Assembly: GCA_007376295.1 (NCBI GenBank)
Contig: VMGB01000002.1
Coordinates: 2,843 to 66,842 of the forward strand
Source of the DNA: Parcubacteria group bacterium Gr01-1014_13
GTDB lineage: Bacteria; Patescibacteriota; Patescibacteriia; Magasanikbacterales; GWA2-37-8
Length of the DNA: 64,000 nt
Direction: 5' to 3'
A model generated the notes under the pieces. It was not told where the DNA came from. It did not search any database and saw nothing but the letters and a program-made list of their open reading frames with translations. Shown here piece by piece: positions 4,795 through 40,374 of the stretch. The position numbers were made by a program, and so were the translations under genes. Position 1 is the first letter of the stretch. Each line of letters opens with the position of its first letter.

Positions 4795-4823
4795 TTGACA
4801 TATATCTAAAATATAGCTATAAT
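4795..4823 (+). promoter_or_regulatory. perfect consensus sigma70 promoter TTGACA-17-TATAAT for the dinJ-yafQ operon
   Basis: TTGACA 4795..4800, 17-nt spacer, TATAAT 4818..4823, about 30 nt upstream of the ATG at 4853. Confidence 0.7.
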
Positions 4824-4852
4824 ATATATGTTAAATCATTCATTTAAATAAT

Positions 4853-5128
4853 ATGGTAACACAAGTAATCTTCAAAATCGATAAAAAACTCAAAGATAAA
4901 GCTATGGCCAAGGCGCAAAACGAGGGTATTGCTTTTGCTTCAGTTCTTAAATTAGCCACTAAAGCATTTGTGGATGGAGATTTTAATATCGGCCTCATTA
5001 ATAGAGAGCTTAGTCCGCGAACAAAAAAAATGCTTGCTCGTGAAATTAAAGATATAAAGGCCGGTAAAAACATGTCGCCAGCATTTAACAATGCAAAGGA
5101 TGCCATTGCTTATCTTAGGGGATTGTAA
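4853..5128 (+). CDS. dinJ: type II antitoxin, DinJ/RelB family (ribbon-helix-helix)
   Basis: N-terminus KIDKKLKDKAMAKAQNEGI...LKLATKAFV resembles the DinJ RHH. Sits directly upstream (3-nt gap) of a YafQ/RelE-like toxin. Confidence 0.65.
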   Translation: MVTQVIFKIDKKLKDKAMAKAQNEGIAFASVLKLATKAFVDGDFNIGLINRELSPRTKKMLAREIKDIKAGKNMSPAFNNAKDAIAYLRGL

Positions 5129-5131
5129 TTC

Positions 5132-14417: not shown

Positions 14418-17156
14418 CTACTTCATTTCACCCCAACTGCGGTTGATACTAATACCAACTTTTACCGGTACACGCAGAGTCACCACATTCTCCATTATAC
14501 TTTTTACCAGATCGGCAACTTCGTCGGCCAATTCTTTTTTTACTTCCAAAACCAATTCGTCGTGTACCTGTAAAAGTATTTTGGCCTGACTTAGAGATTT
14601 ATTTTTATTATCTTTTATTTTTTTATGCACTTCAATCATCGCCATCTTCATCAAATCCGCGGCTGTACCCTGTATTGGATGATTTACAGCCATGCGTTCA
14701 GCAGCTGCCCGCATCTGAAAATTAGTTGCGTTTAATTCTGGCAAATAACGGCGGCGGCCAAACAAAGTTTCGCAATAACCTTCTTTTTTAGTAAATTCCA
14801 AAGTCCGGTCTATATATTCCCGCACCCCGCTAAACGCCTCAAAATATTTTCTGATAAAATCTTTGGCTTCGGCCTGGGAAATACCGGTGCGCCAGCTAAG
14901 CCCATACGAACCCATGCCGTAGAGCACGCCAAAGTTTACTTCCTTGGCTGCATAACGCATCTCTTTGGTTACTTCTGAGAGTGGCACGTTGTTTATGGCC
15001 GCGGCAGTCGCTTTATGAATATCTTCATCGTTGTTAAAAATCTCAATCATGCGCTTGTCTTGGGCTAGCGAGGCCACTATACGCAATTCAATCTGTGAAT
15101 AATCCGCGCTGACCAAAACATTGCCCGGTTCAGCCACAAAGGCCTTGCGTATTTCTCGTCCTAACTCGCTACGAATAGGAATATTTTGCAAATTTGGATC
15201 CAAGCTAGACAAACGGCCAGTAGCAGCCACAGTTTGATTAAAGTGAGAGTGGATTCTGCCGGTTTTTTTATTTATCAAATCCGGCAGTACATCTATATAT
15301 GTATTTTTCAGCTTAGCCAGTTCGCGATAGGTAGAAATCTCTTCGATAATCGGATGCAGACCGCGCATTTTTTCCAATTCTTCAGCTGAAGTAGAGAGAC
15401 CGGTCTTGCCTTTTTTTATACCAGCCACAGAAATATCTAATTTATCAAACAGAACTTCCCTTAATTGTATTGGCGAAGCGATATTAAATTCCATGCCGGC
15501 TAGTTTATATATTTTTTTGGTTAATTTGTCTAAACTTTCTGTTGCTTCAACGGATAATTTTTTTAACATGGTTTTATCTACCGCAATGCCATTTAGTTCC
15601 ATCTCAGCCAAAACATATTCCAACTGCATTTCCATTTTTTTAAACAAACCAAAATTATCAGCTTTTTCCAATTCAATTTTTAATTTTTCTTTGGCCTGAT
15701 TGATTAAAAATATCTCTTCCGCCAAACTTTTTTTATCTATGCCAAACAAACTTGTTTGCGCTGTATTTTGCGGCAGAACTTTTCCCAAAACTTTTAGCAG
15801 TATGCTGGTAATATCGTGCGCTTTACTGCCAGAATTTAATAAATACGAAGCAACCATCACATCAAACATGTCATTTTCTGGAACTAATTCAAAATTGTAT
15901 TGCAAAGTTTTTATTAATTCTTTCAGATCATGACCAACTAATTCTAAACTGCTGTCCTTAAACAAAGGTAAAACTTTTTTTACCATTTTAGCATCAACAA
16001 AAAATACTTCTGACTTAACAGTTACCATTAAACCAAGAAATTCACTATCCAAAACTTCTTTGCCGCTTAAAACTGCCCGGCAAGCAAATGATTTATTTTC
16101 TTTTACTAATTTAATTAATTTTTCCAATTCATTTTCTTTATTTACTTCAGAAAAAATCATTTTTTCTGCACTTTTGTGTTTTCCCTGCTTGTCATGTAGT
16201 TCCGCTTCAGTAGAAAAACCGGGAATTCTTTTTAAAAGTGAAACAAATTCAAACTTTTGGAATAGCTTACTGATTTTCTCCTTATCAAAATCTTTAATTT
16301 CGCAATGCTTAAAATCAAACTTTAAATCGGGAACATCACAATTTATGGTCGACAATTCTTTGCTCATCTTAGCGCTGGCTTCGCCCTCAATCAGTTTGGC
16401 TATCACGCCAGGTTTTAATTCTTTAGCTATTTTTTCTCTATTTTTTAATTGTTTATATATATTATCTATACTCCCAAATTTTAAAATTAATTCGGTTGCG
16501 CTTTTCTCTCCGATTCCAGGCACGCCTGGAATATTGTCTGAAGCATCACCGCGTAAAGCTTTATAATCCACCATTTTTTCTGGTCCAAAACCAAATCTGG
16601 CTTTTACGCCAGCTACATCATAAACTACTACATCGCTAATTCCTTTGCGCAAGGTATATACTTTTGCTTTGTCGCTCACTAGTTGTAAAGTATCCATATC
16701 GCCAGTGACGATAAATACTTCTGTGTCCTTTTCTTTTTCCAATTTTTTTACAATCGTGCCAATCACATCATCGGCTTCATAACCTTTTTTTTCATAAATC
16801 GGCAAATCAAAAGATTCTACCAATTCGTGTACCAAAGGTATCTGATCATATAATGCTTGATCTGCTTTTACCCGCGTGGCTTTGTATTCTTTGTATTGCA
16901 CATGCCGAAAAGTCGGGCCAGACATATCAAAAGTCACGGCAATACAGCTTGGCTGTAAATCTTTCCAAACTTTAAGCAGCATGGAAGCAAATCCATAAAC
17001 TGCATTTACCATTTTTCCATCTTTAGTGGTAAGCGGAGGAATAGCGTGATAGGCGCGATGGATAATGGCGTTGCCGTCGAAAATAATAATTCTTTTCATA
17101 CAAAAAACGAAAAAGTTTAGCAGTACTATTCTACCTTGTTGAATTTTTTTGAGCAA
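14418..17156 (-). CDS. polA: DNA polymerase I (5'-3' exonuclease + polymerase domains)
   Basis: MKRIIIFDGNAIIHRAYHA 5'-nuclease N-terminus and conserved polymerase motifs (RRxAKxxNFGxxYG, YxQIELR, HDELVLE). The likely true start is the internal Met about 19 codons into the ORF (near 17099). Confidence 0.95.
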   Translation of the reverse strand: MLKKIQQGRIVLLNFFVFCMKRIIIFDGNAIIHRAYHAIPPLTTKDGKMVNAVYGFASMLLKVWKDLQPSCIAVTFDMSGPTFRHVQYKEYKATRVKADQALYDQIPLVHELVESFDLPIYEKKGYEADDVIGTIVKKLEKEKDTEVFIVTGDMDTLQLVSDKAKVYTLRKGISDVVVYDVAGVKARFGFGPEKMVDYKALRGDASDNIPGVPGIGEKSATELILKFGSIDNIYKQLKNREKIAKELKPGVIAKLIEGEASAKMSKELSTINCDVPDLKFDFKHCEIKDFDKEKISKLFQKFEFVSLLKRIPGFSTEAELHDKQGKHKSAEKMIFSEVNKENELEKLIKLVKENKSFACRAVLSGKEVLDSEFLGLMVTVKSEVFFVDAKMVKKVLPLFKDSSLELVGHDLKELIKTLQYNFELVPENDMFDVMVASYLLNSGSKAHDITSILLKVLGKVLPQNTAQTSLFGIDKKSLAEEIFLINQAKEKLKIELEKADNFGLFKKMEMQLEYVLAEMELNGIAVDKTMLKKLSVEATESLDKLTKKIYKLAGMEFNIASPIQLREVLFDKLDISVAGIKKGKTGLSTSAEELEKMRGLHPIIEEISTYRELAKLKNTYIDVLPDLINKKTGRIHSHFNQTVAATGRLSSLDPNLQNIPIRSELGREIRKAFVAEPGNVLVSADYSQIELRIVASLAQDKRMIEIFNNDEDIHKATAAAINNVPLSEVTKEMRYAAKEVNFGVLYGMGSYGLSWRTGISQAEAKDFIRKYFEAFSGVREYIDRTLEFTKKEGYCETLFGRRRYLPELNATNFQMRAAAERMAVNHPIQGTAADLMKMAMIEVHKKIKDNKNKSLSQAKILLQVHDELVLEVKKELADEVADLVKSIMENVVTLRVPVKVGISINRSWGEMK

Positions 17157-17157
17157 G

Positions 17158-17187
17158 AAAAAAGACGGTTCCCGAAGGATTGCCGTC
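17158..17187 (-). terminator. intrinsic terminator of unit B (GACGG-CAAUCCUUCGGGAACC-GUC plus U6)
   Basis: Hairpin with an inner UUCG-capped stem followed by TTTTTT on the minus strand, about 60 nt upstream of the polA start. Confidence 0.65.
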
Positions 17188-17467
17188 TGTAGTCTGGCTG
17201 GTAAGCCTCTGGTCCAACTTAGCCGGGACTAGAGAAACATCATCAGCCAGGCAAGGGCTAGAATCAAAACGAAAGTGGTTGCTTCCAGCAGAACAATTAC
17301 TGCTGGCTCGATCTTCAGTCCCACCCGCTGCAACCACAGATGGTGGTAGCGGCGGTGTGAAAGCTGCTGATTCTGCAAGTAAGAAGGCCTGTCCTTCATA
17401 TCAATCATTTCTGAAATTCCCCCTTTAGCGATTCTTGTTGTTATGGTGAAAATTCACCAATTACTCG
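17188..17467 (-). ncRNA. GC-enriched transcription unit B: highly structured RNA of about 280 nt, or mRNA of a 59-aa membrane peptide (17229..17408)
   Basis: Consensus promoter upstream and terminator downstream. Several perfect hairpins (CCAGCAG-N8-CUGCUGG; CUCUAGUCC-N10-GGACCAGAG; GGUGAAUUUUCACC). An in-frame 59-aa ORF MIDMKDRPSYLQNQQLSHRRYHHLWLQRVGLKIEPAVIVLLEATTFVLILALAWLMMFL is preceded by GGGGGA. Confidence 0.4.
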
Positions 17468-17473
17468 ACCGCT

Positions 17474-17502
17474 ATTATACTCTAAAACAAGCCTTTTGTC
17501 AA
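17474..17502 (-). promoter_or_regulatory. perfect consensus promoter TTGACA-17-TATAAT for unit B
   Basis: Minus-strand TTGACA at 17497..17502, 17-nt spacer, TATAAT at 17474..17479. Confidence 0.6.
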
Positions 17503-17598
17503 GAGTATAATGCCATTTTTTGGCTAATATTAGAAAAAAGAAGACCCGCCGAGGCTTTATGCCAAGACGGGTTGTTGGTTGGGTCTACTATTATAGAG

Positions 17599-18168
17599 TC
17601 AGAGTCGCCGCCACAAACGGTAAGTGAAGAATAGTGGCGGAATACTGAACAGAAAGAAGCCAAGAGCGTAGAAGATATTGTTGGGAAAGACACTGATGCC
17701 GCTGGGTACTGTTACCTTGTACCCGTCATTCCCGTGATCCAGAAGCGTTTCACGCAACTTGAGTAAGATATTACTCCGCTCCAACTGCGTGGTTTCCGGT
17801 TTCACCTTCTCCAACTCATCGAGAGAAGATTTCAGGTTATTATACCAGAATCCAACATCATCATCTGGAGTATTGTACAGAATGGAAGTGTAGCCTTCCA
17901 TCATCTTGTTCTCTTCGAGATACGAGACAACAATTCTCATTTCCTTCGCAGCCATCTCTACGGTATTTGCATCAGCCGCCCGCTTAATATGATTGCCACA
18001 GTCACGGTCGAACAATACCATCTTAACGACACGCGCCCCGCTCAAAACAAGTAGTGGCAAAAGGACAAGTGTTCCCTTAAACACCCATTTCCAAAGCTTA
18101 TTTCTTGTCTTGGCCTGTTCTTTCTTGATCTCTTCCAGGATGCTTTGTGTCTTTTTACTGTAACTCAT
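17599..18168 (-). CDS. hypothetical membrane-anchored protein (N- and C-terminal hydrophobic segments)
   Basis: RBS GGAGGA 4 nt before the second ATG of ATGATG. An intrinsic terminator (GACCC...GGGTC plus T-tract) follows at about 17540..17585. GC content is somewhat elevated. Confidence 0.5.
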   Translation of the reverse strand: MSYSKKTQSILEEIKKEQAKTRNKLWKWVFKGTLVLLPLLVLSGARVVKMVLFDRDCGNHIKRAADANTVEMAAKEMRIVVSYLEENKMMEGYTSILYNTPDDDVGFWYNNLKSSLDELEKVKPETTQLERSNILLKLRETLLDHGNDGYKVTVPSGISVFPNNIFYALGFFLFSIPPLFFTYRLWRRL

Positions 18169-18267
18169 CATTCCTCCGGTTCGTAGTTGCAGATTCACCT
18201 AAAATTTACTCTAAAAAGACCCTCGTGTCAACAAGATGCTGGGTAAATTTATTACTACTGAAAAGTG

Positions 18268-18339
18268 AGGTCGCGGTGGGAATTGCACCCACGCATAGAG
18301 GTTTTGCAAACCACTGCCTTACTGCTTGGCTACGCGACC
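18268..18339 (-). tRNA. tRNA-Cys (anticodon GCA), with one U-U mismatch in the anticodon stem
   Basis: Acceptor GGTCGCG/CGCGACC, T arm GTGGG-TGCAATT-CCCAC, anticodon loop TTGCAAA, discriminator U73 (a Cys identity element). Confidence 0.7.
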
Positions 18340-18384
18340 ATTTAAGTGATAGAACACTATCACTTATTATAAAATTTTTCAAGC

Positions 18385-19692
18385 CTACTTCACAAATCTA
18401 AACGGATTGGTACGAATATTGTTTACCCAAACCTCAAAGTGCAGGTGGATACCTGTAGGACCGCGTACATTACCAGTGTTACCCATCAAACCGACAGTTT
18501 GTCCGGCGTCAACAAGCTGACCGACATTCACCAACAGTCGGGAATTGTGTCCGTACAAAGTTTTTATTCCACCACCGTGATCTATCACAACTACACAGCC
18601 ATAACCAGAGTTCCAGCCACATTGAGATTTAATGACCACACCCGATTTAACCGCATAGTTCGGAGTAGAAAAGCCCCCGCCAGCAATATCAATACCGCTA
18701 TGCTTCCAAGTAAAGTACTGGGTAACCAAACGAGTCGCAGTCGGCCAAATAAATCCAGAAACAGAAGGTACCTGCCGTGATGATGGCGGTGTGGCAATCC
18801 GGCTAATATTACGCAATGGGACTACATTTAATTTTGTAGGTTGCTTTACTCCATTTGGAACTATGATTTTTTCTCCGATTACCAAATCAGAGCCATCAGC
18901 TTTTAATTTATTGAACTTGATTATGGCTTCTGCAGTAGCGCCATACAGAGTGGCGATTTTTTTGATTGTATCACCTTTCTTTATGACATGAGTCAAACCA
19001 CTAACTGGAAGGATTTTTAATTTATCACCGGGGTGCAAAAAGGAATTCAAACCTAAATTATTTTCCCAAAGAATTGTAGCAATAGTAATCTGGAATTTCT
19101 GCGCGATACTGCCCAAAGAGTCACCGGGCTGTACTTCGTGGGTAATAATTTTATCACGAGTACCACCCGGAGCTTGGCCAGGAAAAATTATTGGTTTTGA
19201 TAAAGCCGACCCACCGGCCACCACGCTACCTAACTCGATATCTTGAATTGAGGTGTAAGAAAATTGATCTGAACTGACTGCGCCCGCTGTCCAAAATGGA
19301 GATGGGGAAGTAAACTGCGTTTCGTCAGCAAAAACTTCCTCTATGGAATAATCTGTATCAGAAGGGGTTAAGCGGTAAGCCAAGGTTTGTTGGCCCGGCA
19401 AACTGACCTCTTTTTTAGCATAAAGCTTGGTTTGGGGCAGGGCTACTATAAATAGAATAAGAAAAACAGCCACTTGCAAATTGTCGCGTTTTACCAGCTG
19501 TCGGTCTAGCCCGGCGGCACTGATTATTTTTTTGAAAAAATACTCAGTCTTGTAATGAATAAAGCCGATTAAACGCCAGCCAGGAGCGAATATTTTGGCT
19601 AAAACAAAAAGACTTTTGGCGCCTAACCACCAAAAAAATCTTTTTACGTATATCAGGACTCGCAGCGTTTTAAGCAGTATTTTATAACGCAT
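18385..19692 (-). CDS. M23 family metallopeptidase with two LysM domains (cell-wall hydrolase)
   Basis: LysM repeats (GDSLGSIAQKF, GDTIKKIATLYG). C-terminal M23 motifs (HxxxD ... GNTGNVRGPTGIHLHFEV). Confidence 0.85.
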   Translation of the reverse strand: MRYKILLKTLRVLIYVKRFFWWLGAKSLFVLAKIFAPGWRLIGFIHYKTEYFFKKIISAAGLDRQLVKRDNLQVAVFLILFIVALPQTKLYAKKEVSLPGQQTLAYRLTPSDTDYSIEEVFADETQFTSPSPFWTAGAVSSDQFSYTSIQDIELGSVVAGGSALSKPIIFPGQAPGGTRDKIITHEVQPGDSLGSIAQKFQITIATILWENNLGLNSFLHPGDKLKILPVSGLTHVIKKGDTIKKIATLYGATAEAIIKFNKLKADGSDLVIGEKIIVPNGVKQPTKLNVVPLRNISRIATPPSSRQVPSVSGFIWPTATRLVTQYFTWKHSGIDIAGGGFSTPNYAVKSGVVIKSQCGWNSGYGCVVVIDHGGGIKTLYGHNSRLLVNVGQLVDAGQTVGLMGNTGNVRGPTGIHLHFEVWVNNIRTNPFRFVK

Positions 19693-23089: not shown

Positions 23090-23524
23090 ATGTCTCTACT
23101 ATGTGGCGTCTGCAAGTATGATATTCGTGAAGGCTATGGACTTATCTATGGCCTACAGCGTAGTAAAGATGGCGATATCATCCTTCCCGACATGAAAAAT
23201 GATATCGTGCCGCCAAATTGTGCGGTGTGCGACGGGTGTTTTGGGAGGGTACCGGAGGGTATCGTTGGGCCAGTAACTTCTGCCCAAGATCTGACAAAGA
23301 TGGATGACCCCATCTATGTCTATGCAAAAGCAAGTAGTGGCACTGGCATGTTTGGTGCCAGGGAATGGAGTAGTATCCAGGCCGACGACAACAATCTTCG
23401 TCCTGTACAGGCGGCGTGGCTCAAACAAAATTTTGCTTTCCTTGCTAAAATTATTGCCAACATGGCAAAGAACAAGGAAGAACCGATGGAAATTCGGGTT
23501 GGAGTTGTTACCACAAAAGCCTAA
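23090..23524 (+). CDS. hypothetical protein with an N-terminal CxxC...CxxC zinc-ribbon
   Basis: Internal Met start with RBS AGGAGAA. CGVCKYD ... CAVCDGC. Confidence 0.5.
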   Translation: MSLLCGVCKYDIREGYGLIYGLQRSKDGDIILPDMKNDIVPPNCAVCDGCFGRVPEGIVGPVTSAQDLTKMDDPIYVYAKASSGTGMFGAREWSSIQADDNNLRPVQAAWLKQNFAFLAKIIANMAKNKEEPMEIRVGVVTTKA

Positions 23525-23585
23525 GTATAGAAATATGCTCATGGCAGGCTACTAGCGACAATGTCGTAAGTAGCCTTTTTTATTT

Positions 23586-39359: not shown

Positions 39360-39752
39360 TTAAACCTCTTGGGTAATAGTTTTTTTGCAACTCATGCAAG
39401 AGCTGGAAGTCAGTCTGGCGAGCAATCTTTTTTCTTCAATTGGTTTGTGGCAATACTTGCAGATGCCATAGTCGCCTTTTTCCATTCTGGCCAAGGATTG
39501 ATTGGTATCACGTAAGGATTTTTCTAAATTTTCTTCCAAAGAAAGATTTACCACATAGTCGGCCACTTCGGCAGCGTTTTCATCTTCTTTATCGCCGTAG
39601 TCAGGGAAAGTAGTATCAAAATCATCACCAGAGTTGGATTTTTTTTTGGCAAACTTAGCCAATTCTTTTTCGAGTTTGGTTTTTTCTTCCAAAAGCAAAG
39701 CTTTTACTTTCTTTAGGAAATCAGCTGAATAGGGTAATTTTGTCTTGCTCAT
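39360..39752 (-). CDS. DksA/TraR family C4 zinc-finger protein
   Basis: Coiled-coil N-terminus. C-terminal CKYCHKPI...SSSCMSCK four-Cys finger. Confidence 0.8.
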   Translation of the reverse strand: MSKTKLPYSADFLKKVKALLLEEKTKLEKELAKFAKKKSNSGDDFDTTFPDYGDKEDENAAEVADYVVNLSLEENLEKSLRDTNQSLARMEKGDYGICKYCHKPIEEKRLLARLTSSSCMSCKKTITQEV

Positions 39753-39861
39753 AAGGGCAGGGGTTCTATTTTAGAAAAAATAAAGCAGTCGGAGCGACTG
39801 TTTTTACTGTCTGTGAGTATTTTATCAGTGAGCTGCACGGTTGTCAATAACAGCAACTGTA

Positions 39862-40212
39862 AGCAAATTAATTATAAAAGGCGATCACCTTCTACCTCAA
39901 TTTTTAAATTGATACAGAAGGCGGATCGCCTTTGAAGATATTACTAAGGGGAGGTACTTTCTCCCTCTTAAGGAGAACTTGTACGCTACCTACCTCTGGT
40001 AATATTGAAATTTTGACCCTAACCGCTTGTGGGTAGAGCCCCAGTGTTAAAGTGACCCGAGGGTATTTAACTAATTTAGGGTTACCCGGGAAGAAGTTGG
40101 GCACGCCATTGCTTTTTTTCTATGTAAAGCAGTTGTTTGCCCAGTTCTAAATTGCAGTTTATAGGTCATTTGTATACAGAAGTGTATACATTTGAATTGT
40201 AGAATGAACTAC
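39862..40212 (-). ncRNA. candidate structured ncRNA of about 340 nt (unit E), unclassified
   Basis: Perfect TTGACA-17-TATAAT promoter at 40219..40247 on the minus strand. A 17-bp-stem terminator hairpin at 39877..39934 is followed by a U-rich tract. Multiple internal hairpins. The only ORF (GTG start, no RBS, Pro-rich) is unconvincing. Confidence 0.4.
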
Positions 40213-40374
40213 AAAGATATTATAGCATTTTTTTCACCCTTTGTCAACTATTTGTATACACTAGTATATACAAATATATTTTAGCTGTAATTAGCTAAAA
40301 TTTCCACAGTTTATCCACATTCCCTATAGGTTATACCCAAAGTTATCCACAGTTGTATACACTAGTGTATACAA
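40171..40374. promoter_or_regulatory. regulatory hub: three paired palindromic TGTATACA operators (40171..40190, 40253..40272, 40353..40374) and two perfect DnaA boxes TTATCCACA (40311..40319, 40343..40351) plus weaker boxes
   Basis: Each operator is two self-complementary 8-mers separated by 4 nt (TTGTATACActagTGTATACAA is a perfect 22-bp palindrome). The boxes lie in the same orientation between divergent promoters. Confidence 0.6.
40219..40247 (-). promoter_or_regulatory. perfect consensus promoter TTGACA-17-TATAAT for unit E
   Basis: Minus-strand TTGACA 40242..40247, TATAAT 40219..40224. Confidence 0.6.

What the first reader, a model, noticed from the sequence alone, without database searches (positions are those of the whole stretch)
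17158..18340. Small islet downstream of tRNA-Cys carrying a structured GC-enriched unit B (about 280 nt RNA or 59-aa membrane peptide) with a perfect promoter and a UUCG terminator
Immediately 3' of tRNA-Cys (18268..18339, minus strand) lie a moderately GC-enriched membrane-protein gene and then unit B. Unit B has a consensus TTGACA-17-TATAAT promoter (17474..17502) and an RNA with several perfect hairpins (7-bp CCAGCAG/CUGCUGG, 9-bp CUCUAGUCC/GGACCAGAG nested in CUGGCUG/CAGCCAG). It ends in an intrinsic terminator about 60 nt before polA. The transcript also encodes, behind GGGGGA, a 59-aa peptide with a hydrophilic His/Arg-rich head and a C-terminal TM helix. That architecture is reminiscent of type I toxin-like or small membrane regulatory peptides. 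Placement at a tRNA 3' end suggests acquisition by integration.
Basis: partly seen in the sequence, partly recalled or inferred. Interest (0 to 1): 0.65.

Follow-up and report, generated by a model that had tools for sequence, protein, structure and literature searches.

The report
Small tail-anchored membrane peptide gene
Between tRNA-Cys and polA this groundwater Magasanikbacteria (CPR) genome carries a self-contained gene for a rare 59-residue membrane peptide of unknown function, with a conserved hairpin over its stop codon; it is not a structured RNA gene and shows no signs of a toxin-antitoxin pair.

Summary
On the minus strand lie tRNA-Cys, a two-TM orphan ORF (unit A), then unit B, 60 nt before polA. 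Unit B has a 12/12 promoter, an SD, a 59-aa ORF, nested hairpins and a UUCG terminator.

Unit B is a protein-coding gene. Eleven homologous units exist, and they are all that turned up in 5.8 billion proteins and 1.84 billion representatives. All sit upstream of polA in related Magasanikbacteria. Only the annotated frame is stop-free in all eleven. All encode 54-63 aa with an N-terminal motif (K-x-P-S-F-L-x-N-Q-x-V), an Arg/His/Trp-rich middle and a C-terminal TM helix. dN/dS is 0.4-0.6.

No Rfam, Pfam, NCBIfam or PADLOC family matches. Conserved RNA structure is confined to the 3' end: a roughly 57-nt hairpin spanning the stop codon, plus the terminator, both with covariation.

The SD is mostly accessible and no conserved antisense promoter exists, so type I toxin membership is not supported.

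The tRNA-Cys/polA junction is a variable hotspot. Many relatives have the two genes abutting. There is no integrase or att repeat, and unit B looks mostly vertically inherited with losses.

GC3 is persistently high (0.57-0.83 against a host range of 0.28-0.48), which is unexplained.

Peptide function is inferred only. This is a modestly interesting new small-protein family.

The parts
18267..18339 (-). tRNA-Cys (GCA), the upstream boundary of the variable junction
   Evidence: ARAGORN; Rfam RF00005, 59.1 bits.
18203..18231 (-). Unit A promoter-like site, TTGACA-17-TAAATT. It is related to the unit B promoter (80% identical over 25 nt).
   Evidence: 10/12 match; direct repeat D1.
17599..18171 (-). 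Unit A: an orphan 190-aa ORF (199 aa from GTG at 18198). It has N- and C-terminal TM helices around a helical bundle. GC3 is 0.55.
   Evidence: ORF. Only identical copies on record. No tblastn relatives in the fetched loci. No Pfam, NCBIfam or PADLOC family. Single-sequence AF2 model is all-helical, pLDDT 69. Foldseek against PDB gives only generic four-helix bundles, E >= 0.4.
17533..17571 (-). Unit A terminator-like hairpin (CCCGUCUUGGC-AUAAA-GCCUCGGCGGG) followed by a U run
   Evidence: Read from the sequence. Not tested further.
17503..17527 (-). Conserved block upstream of the -35, TTAGCCAAAAA-N3-GCATTA-N. It is an A-tract in the position of an UP element.
   Evidence: Conserved in 8 of 11 units. 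The UP-element role is inference.
17474..17502 (-). Unit B promoter, TTGACA-17-TATAAT, with a conserved spacer (AAAGG-N4-TTTT-NGNG)
   Evidence: 12/12 match. The spacer pattern occurs only at unit B (and at unit A of the window) among 99 loci. Perfect promoters in the window: 6 observed against 0.03 expected.
17445..17458 (-). 5'UTR hairpin GGUGAAUUUUCACC, shared only with unit L099
17418..17423 (-). Shine-Dalgarno GGGGGA, 9 nt before the ATG
   Evidence: Sequence. Every homologous unit has a strong SD at the same distance.
17229..17408 (-). 59-aa ORF, MIDMKDRPSYLQNQQLSHRRYHHLWLQRVGLKIEPAVIVLLEATTFVLILALAWLMMFL. It encodes a tail-anchored membrane peptide.
   Evidence: Family of 11. Only this frame is stop-free in all 11, and all have a C-terminal 20-aa window with KD 2.15-2.61. 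dN/dS 0.40-0.62. AF2 predicts a single helix 9-58, with pLDDT above 90 in the TM part.
17194..17250 (-). Conserved 3' composite hairpin. The outer stem pairs CUGGCUG (Trp-Leu codons) with CAGCCAG in the 3'UTR. The inner stem CUCUAGUCC/GGACCAGAG encloses the UAG stop codon.
   Evidence: Present in the individual MFE folds of most units. RNAalifold predicts it. Pair counts: 88.6% of cells paired against 27-56% for slid controls; 11 pairs with changes on both sides against 3-5; 0 of 500 shuffles reach the observed values.
17158..17188 (-). Intrinsic terminator, AGACGGCAAUCC-UUCG-GGAACCGUCU plus a U run
   Evidence: Conserved nearly base for base in 9 of 11 units. A CM built on the hairpin plus terminator hits only unit B copies in 508 kb.
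17128..17156 (-). polA promoter, TTGCTC-17-TAGAAT. It is not part of unit B.
   Evidence: The same CTTGCTCAAAA...TAnnAT block precedes polA in relatives that lack unit B (L009, L014, L016).
14418..17099 (-). polA (DNA polymerase I, 893 aa), the downstream boundary
   Evidence: Pfam 5_3_exonuc_N, 5_3_exonuc and DNA_pol_A on the called gene.

Best explanation
Unit B is an autonomous, probably strongly expressed gene for a lineage-restricted small membrane protein of 54-63 aa. It is not an RNA gene.

The product is a single long helix. Its last ~22-25 residues form a C-terminal (tail-anchor) transmembrane segment, with at most a few residues beyond it. The N-terminal ~30 residues should stay in the cytoplasm. 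They carry a conserved motif (K-x-P-S-F-L-x-N-Q-x-V) followed by an Arg/His/Trp-rich stretch next to the membrane.

The most likely mode of action is inferred, not shown. The peptide would act as a membrane-anchored adaptor or regulator, using the conserved N-terminal helix to hold or modulate a cytoplasmic or membrane partner. This is how other tail-anchored bacterial miniproteins work.

The mRNA carries a conserved 3' module: a ~57-nt hairpin whose 5' arm is the last codons plus the stop codon, then a UUCG-loop terminator. This module most plausibly stabilises the transcript and insulates it from polA (inferred).

The gene sits in a junction between tRNA-Cys and polA that is variable across Magasanikbacteria. 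It appears to be an old accessory gene of one subclade, inherited mostly vertically and lost repeatedly. Unit A (190 aa, two TM) is a lineage-specific addition that uses a related promoter.
For: Coding:
- Eleven homologous units were found.
- The annotated frame is the only one free of stops in all 11.
- ORF length stays at 54-63 aa despite 19-79% pairwise identity among the eight units with polA sequence.
- P8 and Q14 are invariant and L11 is nearly invariant.
- Every member has a C-terminal 20-aa window with KD hydropathy 2.15-2.61 and a positively charged or neutral N-part.
- dN/dS is 0.40-0.62.
- A strong SD lies at constant distance in every unit.
- AF2 with the family alignment gives one helix 9-58 with a confident TM part.

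Expression signals:
- The promoter is a 12/12 match. Perfect promoters are 200-fold enriched in the window, and one drives rpmH.
- Promoter and terminator are conserved across units and found nowhere else in the loci.
- The SD region is mostly unpaired: mean unpaired probability 0.5-0.76 in 8 of 11 units.

3' RNA module: covariation statistics, RNAalifold, and a CM that finds only unit B copies.

Synteny and inheritance:
- All members lie between the M23/LysM peptidase (plus tRNA-Cys) and polA, or directly upstream of polA.
- There is one copy per locus and no paralogues.
- Peptide identity tracks polA identity (rho 0.58).
- tRNA-Cys abuts polA in L006, L008-L014, L016, L021 and L078.
Against: - No experiment or expression data were available, so transcription, translation and membrane insertion are all inferred.
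- The adaptor/regulator function has no direct support. No partner is known and no homology to any characterised family was found.
- dN/dS of 0.4-0.6 is high, so constraint on most of the peptide is weak.
- GC3 is 0.57-0.83 in all 11 lineages against 0.28-0.48 for host polA and 0.32 for rpmH. Ordinary codon bias does not explain this. It points to constraints at the RNA level, or to repeated lateral replacement, that this explanation does not fully cover.
- The promoter and terminator are better conserved than the peptide. That is unusual for a plain protein gene.
Confidence: 0.6

Rival explanations
1. Unit B is a type I toxin-antitoxin-like module, or another membrane-damaging peptide. The hydrophobic peptide would be toxic and kept in check by an RNA antitoxin encoded in cis or elsewhere. 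The structured, GC-rich mRNA would serve stability and delayed activation, as in hok/Sok.
For: - The peptide is under 65 aa with one TM helix.
- The Arg/Trp-rich stretch next to the membrane resembles membrane-active peptides (the resemblance is from general knowledge).
- The mRNA is strongly folded, z = -3.6.
- Distribution is patchy and evolution is fast, in a variable junction next to a tRNA.
- The CCUCU at the stop codon is complementary to SD sequences, so a 5'-3' interaction is conceivable (read from the sequence).
Against: - No positionally conserved antisense promoter exists in the 11 units.
- The terminator has no U run on the opposite strand, so it is not bidirectional.
- The SD is accessible in most predicted ensembles, and 5'UTRs are short (25-59 nt) and not conserved in structure.
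- A perfect promoter plus a strong SD with no visible antidote would be lethal for a real toxin.
- The TM is C-terminal with a polar N-terminal head. This is the reverse of Hok, Fst, TxpA and Ldr (general knowledge).
- PADLOC gives no hit.
- The only complementarity elsewhere in the window is a 15-nt match inside a 949-aa ORF, in a non-conserved part of the CDS.
Confidence: 0.15
2. The functional product is an RNA, either a non-coding or a dual-function transcript. The conserved promoter, the 3' hairpin and the terminator would define an sRNA or a 3'-derived RNA, and the ORF would be secondary.
For: - Promoter, 3' hairpin and terminator are the best conserved parts.
- Covariation in the 3' module is significant.
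- High GC3 is kept in all lineages, which suggests selection at the RNA level.
Against: - No Rfam family matches even at E <= 10.
- No conserved structure exists outside the last ~110 nt.
- The single-stranded linker between hairpin and terminator is not conserved, so there is no seed.
- The reading frame, SD spacing, N-terminal motif and C-terminal hydrophobic helix are kept in all 11 units, while the other five frames break.
- dN/dS is below 1.
Confidence: 0.08
3. The whole islet (units A and B) is recently acquired foreign DNA. It would be moron-like cassettes delivered by a phage or integrative element that targets the 3' end of tRNA-Cys, with no adapted host function.
For: - Each unit has its own promoter and terminator and deviates in composition. 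GC3 is 0.55 and 0.63 against a host maximum of 0.48.
- Occupancy of the junction varies from 1 to 2406 nt among relatives.
- Other GC-rich cassettes sit at the same spot in L003 and L024.
- L021 and L078 keep a 25/27-nt remnant of a different tRNA-Cys 3' end directly on the polA start, so recombination has happened at this junction.
- Unit A has no relatives in the other loci.
Against: - There is no integrase, no phage gene and no tRNA-derived direct repeat in the window islet.
- Unit-specific promoter and terminator patterns hit only unrelated sequences in 2.9 million viral contigs.
- Unit B occupies the same site in 11 lineages whose polA proteins are 70-83% identical. Synonymous divergence is saturating (dS 0.26-1.46), and peptide divergence correlates with polA divergence.
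- Ancient foreign DNA should have drifted towards host composition, yet GC3 stays high everywhere.
Confidence: 0.15

Closest known systems
Tail-anchored bacterial membrane miniproteins (for example Listeria Prli42, which tethers the stressosome, and E. coli ElaB/YqjD/YgaM, which bind ribosomes). Recalled from general knowledge.
   Same: Both have a short polypeptide with a cytoplasmic N-terminal part that carries the conserved interaction surface. Both have a single TM helix at the extreme C-terminus with almost nothing beyond it.
   Different: There is no sequence similarity to any such family. The partner is unknown. This family is restricted to a subclade of Magasanikbacteria and evolves fast.
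Type I toxins (Hok, Fst, TxpA, TisB and similar)
   Same: Both involve a small hydrophobic peptide, a highly folded mRNA, an intergenic location near a tRNA, and a patchy distribution.
   Different: Unit B has no conserved antisense promoter and an accessible SD. It has a consensus promoter on the peptide gene. Its polarity is reversed, with a polar head at the N-terminus and the TM at the C-terminus.
Phage 'morons' (autonomous promoter-ORF-terminator modules of deviant composition). Recalled from general knowledge.
   Same: Units A and B, and the cassettes in L003, each carry their own sigma-70 promoter and intrinsic terminator. They are GC-richer than their surroundings and sit between two conserved genes.
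   Different: They are not in a prophage, and no phage genes are nearby. No copies were found on viral contigs. Unit B is stably syntenic across 11 lineages.
tRNA-linked genomic islets or integrative elements
   Same: The element lies directly 3' of a tRNA gene, and occupancy of the site varies among close relatives.
   Different: The window has no integrase and no att-type repeat of the tRNA 3' end. A tRNA-end remnant is seen only in L021 and L078.

Membership tests
Type I toxin-antitoxin system | Small (under ~60 aa) hydrophobic peptide with a TM helix | tested here: met
   The peptides are 54-63 aa. The best 20-aa window has KD 2.15-2.61 in all 11.
Type I toxin-antitoxin system | Antisense or overlapping sRNA antitoxin gene at the locus | tested here: not met
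   Six of 11 units have no antisense promoter-like site. The others have weak 9/12 sites at non-homologous positions. The terminator is not bidirectional. A trans-encoded RNA cannot be excluded.
Type I toxin-antitoxin system | Toxin mRNA held translationally inert by SD sequestration or 5'-3' pairing | tested here: not met
   Mean unpaired probability of the SD is 0.5-0.76 in 8 of 11 units. There is no conserved 5' structure.
Type I toxin-antitoxin system | Toxicity of the peptide on expression | not testable with these tools
   This needs induction in a heterologous host.
Known structured RNA family (Rfam, including housekeeping RNAs) | Match to a covariance model | tested here: not met
   Only tRNAs reach gathering score in the window. 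Nothing credible appears at E <= 10 in 17000-18400.
Structured non-coding RNA (novel) | Structure conserved with covariation along the transcript, and no conserved reading frame | tested here: not met
   Conserved pairs occur only in the last ~110 nt. The reading frame is conserved in all 11 units.
tRNA-targeting integrative element or genomic island | Integrase gene and direct repeat of the tRNA 3' end at the far border | tested here: not met
   The islet holds only unit A and unit B. No repeat of the tRNA end occurs in 17000-18500.
tRNA-targeting integrative element or genomic island | Site empty in close relatives | tested here: met
   tRNA-Cys lies 1-122 nt from polA in 11 relatives, including the two closest by polA identity (L021, L078).
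Phage moron | Own promoter and terminator plus deviant composition | tested here: met
Phage moron | Located in a phage or prophage genome | tested here: not met
   Neighbours are an H+-PPase, an M23 peptidase and polA. Viral-contig scans with unit-specific patterns found only unrelated sequences.
Tail-anchored membrane miniproteins (Prli42; ElaB/YqjD type) | C-terminal TM anchor with a cytoplasmic N-terminal functional part | tested here: met
   The TM window ends 0-9 residues before the C-terminus. The N-part has net charge 0 to +8 in 10 of 11 units and -1 in L112. AF2 predicts a single helix.
Tail-anchored membrane miniproteins (Prli42; ElaB/YqjD type) | Sequence homology to a described family (for example DUF883) | tested here: not met
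   No Pfam or NCBIfam hit at E <= 1 beyond noise.
Tail-anchored membrane miniproteins (Prli42; ElaB/YqjD type) | Binding of a cytoplasmic partner | not testable with these tools
   This needs pull-down or complex prediction against the organism's proteome.

The most novel reading that the evidence does not exclude
The peptide could be a new kind of membrane-anchored decoy. Its invariant N-terminal P-x-F-L-x-x-Q helix would mimic a short linear motif of a core cytoplasmic machine and sequester that machine's partners at the membrane.

One candidate, recalled from memory only, is the FtsZ C-terminal peptide: DIPAFLRKQ in E. coli and DIPTFLRNR in B. subtilis. That would make the peptide a division regulator. 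Expression might be gated by a repressor that binds the conserved promoter spacer, and by the hairpin over the stop codon.

A related reading that is also not excluded is a toxin whose antidote is encoded elsewhere.
Probability: 0.08. Interest if true: 0.65.

Novelty: new member of a known kind. Interest (0 to 1): 0.33.

Why it matters
CPR bacteria are full of unannotated small genes. The source assembly's gene caller missed this ORF and called an opposite-strand ORF instead.

The locus gives a clean, testable example of a conserved CPR small membrane protein with defined expression signals. It also shows a stop-codon-spanning mRNA hairpin supported by covariation, and a synonymous-site GC excess kept for a long time in AT-rich genomes. 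If a partner for the N-terminal motif were found, it could reveal a regulatory layer specific to Magasanikbacteria.

As it stands, it is an orphan accessory gene in a variable junction. It is useful for annotation but not surprising.

Tried and rejected
1. Known RNA family: Rfam at gathering score and at E <= 10 gave nothing.

2. tmRNA, RNase P, SRP and 6S RNA were considered from size and GC content. ARAGORN and Rfam reject them.

3. Whole-transcript conserved structure: RNAalifold finds only the 3' module. The CCAGCAG/CUGCUGG hairpin inside the CDS is window-specific.

4. Homology of the peptide or of unit A: Pfam, NCBIfam, PADLOC and the PDB sequence profile gave only noise. The best PDB resemblance is to eukaryotic eL29 (PKFLRNQRYA), at chance level with E of 0.6-2.5. 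No FtsZ chain appeared.

5. FtsZ-tail mimicry could not be tested.

6. Phage origin: two viral-contig scans returned only unrelated terminators or promoters.

7. A metagenome scan with the terminator pattern gave 23 loci. Only one was a new family member (L112) and one was a known member; the rest were unrelated.

8. The CM of the 3' module, searched over 508 kb of window and loci, found no further copies. The marginal L024 hit lies in unrelated sequence.

9. Paralogues: a profile search of all stop-to-stop fragments of the window and loci found none.

10. Trans-antisense partner in the window: the only hit is a 15-nt match inside a 949-aa ORF, judged to be chance.

11. Attenuator control of polA by the peptide ORF: no alternative pairing between the 3' arm of the hairpin and the terminator was seen by eye, and polA keeps its own promoter in relatives without unit B.

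12. Integron cassette: each unit has its own promoter and terminator and no integrase is nearby, so this was rejected.

13. The 199-aa ORF upstream of the peptide gene in L094 is unrelated to the window's unit A. It is a lipoprotein-like metzincin with an HELGHxxGLGH motif.

14. The unit A fold gave only generic four-helix bundle matches. The afdb50 library was unavailable.
Full report
**Observation.**
- tRNA-Cys lies at 18267-18339.
- Unit A is a 190/199-aa ORF at 18171(18198)-17599 with a promoter-like site at 18231-18203.
- Unit B starts with a 12/12 TTGACA-17-TATAAT promoter at 17502-17474.
- The SD GGGGGA is at 17423-17418 and the 59-aa ORF at 17408-17229.
- The nested hairpin CUGGCUG...CUCUAGUCC/GGACCAGAG...CAGCCAG is at 17250-17194.
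- A UUCG-loop terminator with a U run is at 17188-17158, about 60 nt before the polA ATG at 17099.
- The transcript folds better than all 100 shuffles, with z = -3.6.
- The window holds six perfect sigma-70 consensus promoters against 0.03 expected. One of them drives rpmH, so such sites are real strong promoters in this organism.

**Source and relatives.** The window comes from a 159-kb ENA metagenome contig. Its polA places it among Candidatus Magasanikbacteria (CPR), with about 25 relatives at 51-86% polA identity.
- In 11 of these, tRNA-Cys lies 1-122 nt from polA. This group includes L021 and L078 (86% and 80% identity over polA; 88% and 86% over the first 250 residues).
- In others the gap is 367-2406 nt and holds varied content.
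- The junction is therefore a variable hotspot, and the islet is accessory.

**What unit B is.** nhmmer and tblastn found homologous units upstream of polA in L002, L003, L004 and L007.
- Profile searches of 5.8 billion proteins and of 1.84 billion cluster representatives returned ten peptides and nothing else.
- A metagenome scan with the terminator pattern added an eleventh, L112.
- Every member lies in the same place. It is either between the M23/LysM peptidase plus tRNA-Cys and polA, or directly upstream of polA.
- There is one copy per locus and no paralogues.
- The peptides are 54-63 aa. They share M-x-D-M-K-x-x-P-S-F-L-Q-N-Q-Q-V, then an Arg/His/Trp/Tyr-rich stretch, then a hydrophobic C-terminal helix ending in W-L-x-x-F-L. 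P8 and Q14 are invariant.
- Only the annotated frame is free of stop codons in all eleven units.
- Each has a 20-residue window of KD 2.15-2.61 that ends 0-9 residues before the C-terminus.
- dN/dS for the closer pairs is 0.40-0.62.
- A strong SD sits at constant distance.
- AlphaFold2 with the family alignment gives one helix from 9 to 58, with a confident TM part.
- Together these results establish a protein-coding gene for a tail-anchored membrane peptide.
- No Pfam, NCBIfam, PADLOC or PDB-sequence relative exists.

**RNA level.** Rfam has no match.
- RNAalifold on the eleven full transcripts predicts conserved pairing only in the last ~110 nt.
- The outer stem joins the Trp-Leu codons (CUGGCUG) to CAGCCAG in the 3'UTR.
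- The inner stem (CCUCU-A-GUCGC / GCGAC-A-AGAGG in most units) encloses the stop codon. The terminator follows.
- On the 3' alignment, 88.6% of cells pair, against 27-56% when partners are slid.
- Eleven pairs show changes on both sides, against 3-5 in the slid controls.
- No shuffle out of 500 reaches the observed values.
- The module appears in the individual MFE folds of most units.
- A covariance model of it finds only unit B copies in 508 kb.
- The 5'UTRs are short (25-59 nt) and not conserved. The SD is mostly unpaired.
- The CCAGCAG/CUGCUGG hairpin is specific to the window.
- Unit B is therefore an mRNA with a conserved structured 3' end, not a 280-nt structured RNA.

**Toxin question.**
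- A scan of the opposite strand of all eleven units found no positionally conserved promoter.
- The terminator is not bidirectional.
- The SD is not sequestered.
- The gene has a consensus promoter.
- The peptide polarity, with a polar N-terminal head and a C-terminal TM, is the reverse of classic type I toxins.
- A 15-nt complementarity elsewhere in the window lies inside a long ORF and in a non-conserved part of the CDS.
- Membership in type I TA systems is therefore not supported. Toxicity itself was not testable.

**Origin.**
- The window islet has no integrase and no repeat of the tRNA 3' end.
- Unit-specific promoter and terminator patterns occur only at unit B among 99 loci. In 2.9 million viral contigs they hit only unrelated sequences.
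- Peptide identity (19-79%) correlates with polA identity (70-83%), with Spearman 0.58.
- Synonymous divergence is large, with dS 0.26-1.46.
- This fits an old accessory gene of one subclade, with repeated loss.
- Unit A has no relatives in the other loci. It shares 80% of a 25-nt promoter core with unit B.
- In L094 the same promoter drives a lipoprotein-like metzincin plus the peptide gene as an apparent operon.
- In L003, three GC-rich cassettes with related promoters and terminators occupy the junction.
- The architecture (own promoter, own terminator, deviant composition) resembles phage morons, but nothing links it to phages.

**Unexplained.**
- GC3 of the peptide gene is 0.57-0.83 in all eleven lineages. 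Host polA has 0.28-0.48, rpmH has 0.32, and the maximum among the window's long ORFs is 0.48.
- Foreign DNA of this age should have drifted towards host composition, and expression-linked codon bias does not produce this.
- Selection on mRNA stability or structure, or cassette exchange between lineages, are possible causes but remain untested.
- The promoter (including its spacer) and the terminator are also more conserved than the peptide.

**Mechanism, with what is shown and what is inferred.**
- Shown by sequence comparison: the gene is coding, the peptide has a tail-anchor architecture and a conserved N-terminal motif, and the mRNA has a conserved 3' module. The unit has strong autonomous expression signals and a syntenic, patchy distribution.
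- Inferred: high expression; cytoplasmic orientation of the N-terminus, from the positive-inside rule; action as a membrane-anchored adaptor or regulator through the N-terminal helix, by analogy with Prli42 and ElaB/YqjD; and the 3' hairpin as a stabiliser or insulator.
- The resemblance of P-x-F-L-x-x-Q to the FtsZ C-terminal peptide is from memory and could not be tested. No ftsZ is in hand, and the PDB profile search listed eL29 at chance level and no FtsZ chain.

**Verdict.** The locus is a new, very narrowly distributed small-protein family of a known general kind. Its conserved stop-codon hairpin and its persistent GC3 anomaly are mildly intriguing. Interest is modest.

Noticed in passing
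window 39753-40247 (minus strand): A perfect TTGACA-17-TATAAT promoter at 40247-40219 is followed by about 460 nt without a long ORF, before the next minus-strand ORF at 39752. This could be a long leader or an unannotated RNA. Rfam gives no credible match.
   Followed up: partly
L021 5969-6003 and L078 (same sequence), compared with L003 4252-4275: In the two closest polA relatives, which lack unit B, a 25/27-nt fragment sits directly on the polA start codon, after a tRNA-Cys with a different acceptor stem. The fragment is GGCCGGCACCTCAAACTATATGC. It matches the 3' end plus trailer of the L003-type tRNA-Cys, so it looks like a remnant of tRNA replacement or recombination at this junction.
   Followed up: partly
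L003 4297-4362 and 5302-5360 (also L083-L086): The 15-nt repeats TTGACCCTNTTAAAT, paired with (A/T)(G/A)CAGGGTTGAC, precede cassettes 1 and 3 of the three-cassette islet. They could be operators or recombination sites. They are found only in this lineage.
   Followed up: partly
L094 400-1366 (also L095, L096): The unit B promoter here drives a 199-aa lipoprotein-like metzincin (LVSAC lipobox, HELGHAGGLGH motif). The peptide gene follows 40 nt later, so a cargo gene has been inserted inside the unit.
   Followed up: partly
window 23155-23542 (minus strand): Another ORF, about 129 aa, has GC3 of 0.55. It ties with unit A as the compositional outlier among the window's ORFs of at least 120 aa.
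   Followed up: no
window 17099-17231 (minus strand): After the UAG of the peptide ORF, the same frame stays open for 43 codons and runs in frame into the polA ATG. The ORF listing therefore reports a 912-aa TTG-started polA. L002 has an early stop in this stretch, so this is probably coincidence.
   Followed up: partly
window 4795-5130 (plus strand): A perfect consensus promoter drives a ~95-aa ORF. A second ORF starts at its stop (…GL* then ATGAAAATC). The layout is reminiscent of a type II toxin-antitoxin pair. It was not analysed.
   Followed up: no
L001 10538-10729, equal to window 17443-17634 (plus strand): The source assembly's gene calls include a 63-aa ORF on the opposite strand across the unit B promoter, and omit the conserved 59-aa ORF. 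This is an annotation error that may be typical for such small genes.
   Followed up: yes
L022 5602-6000: The tRNA-Cys/polA gap here holds no ORF. It has short AT-rich repeats (TTTCCAAAT-type) and two terminator-like hairpins, so the same junction has different content in this lineage.
   Followed up: no
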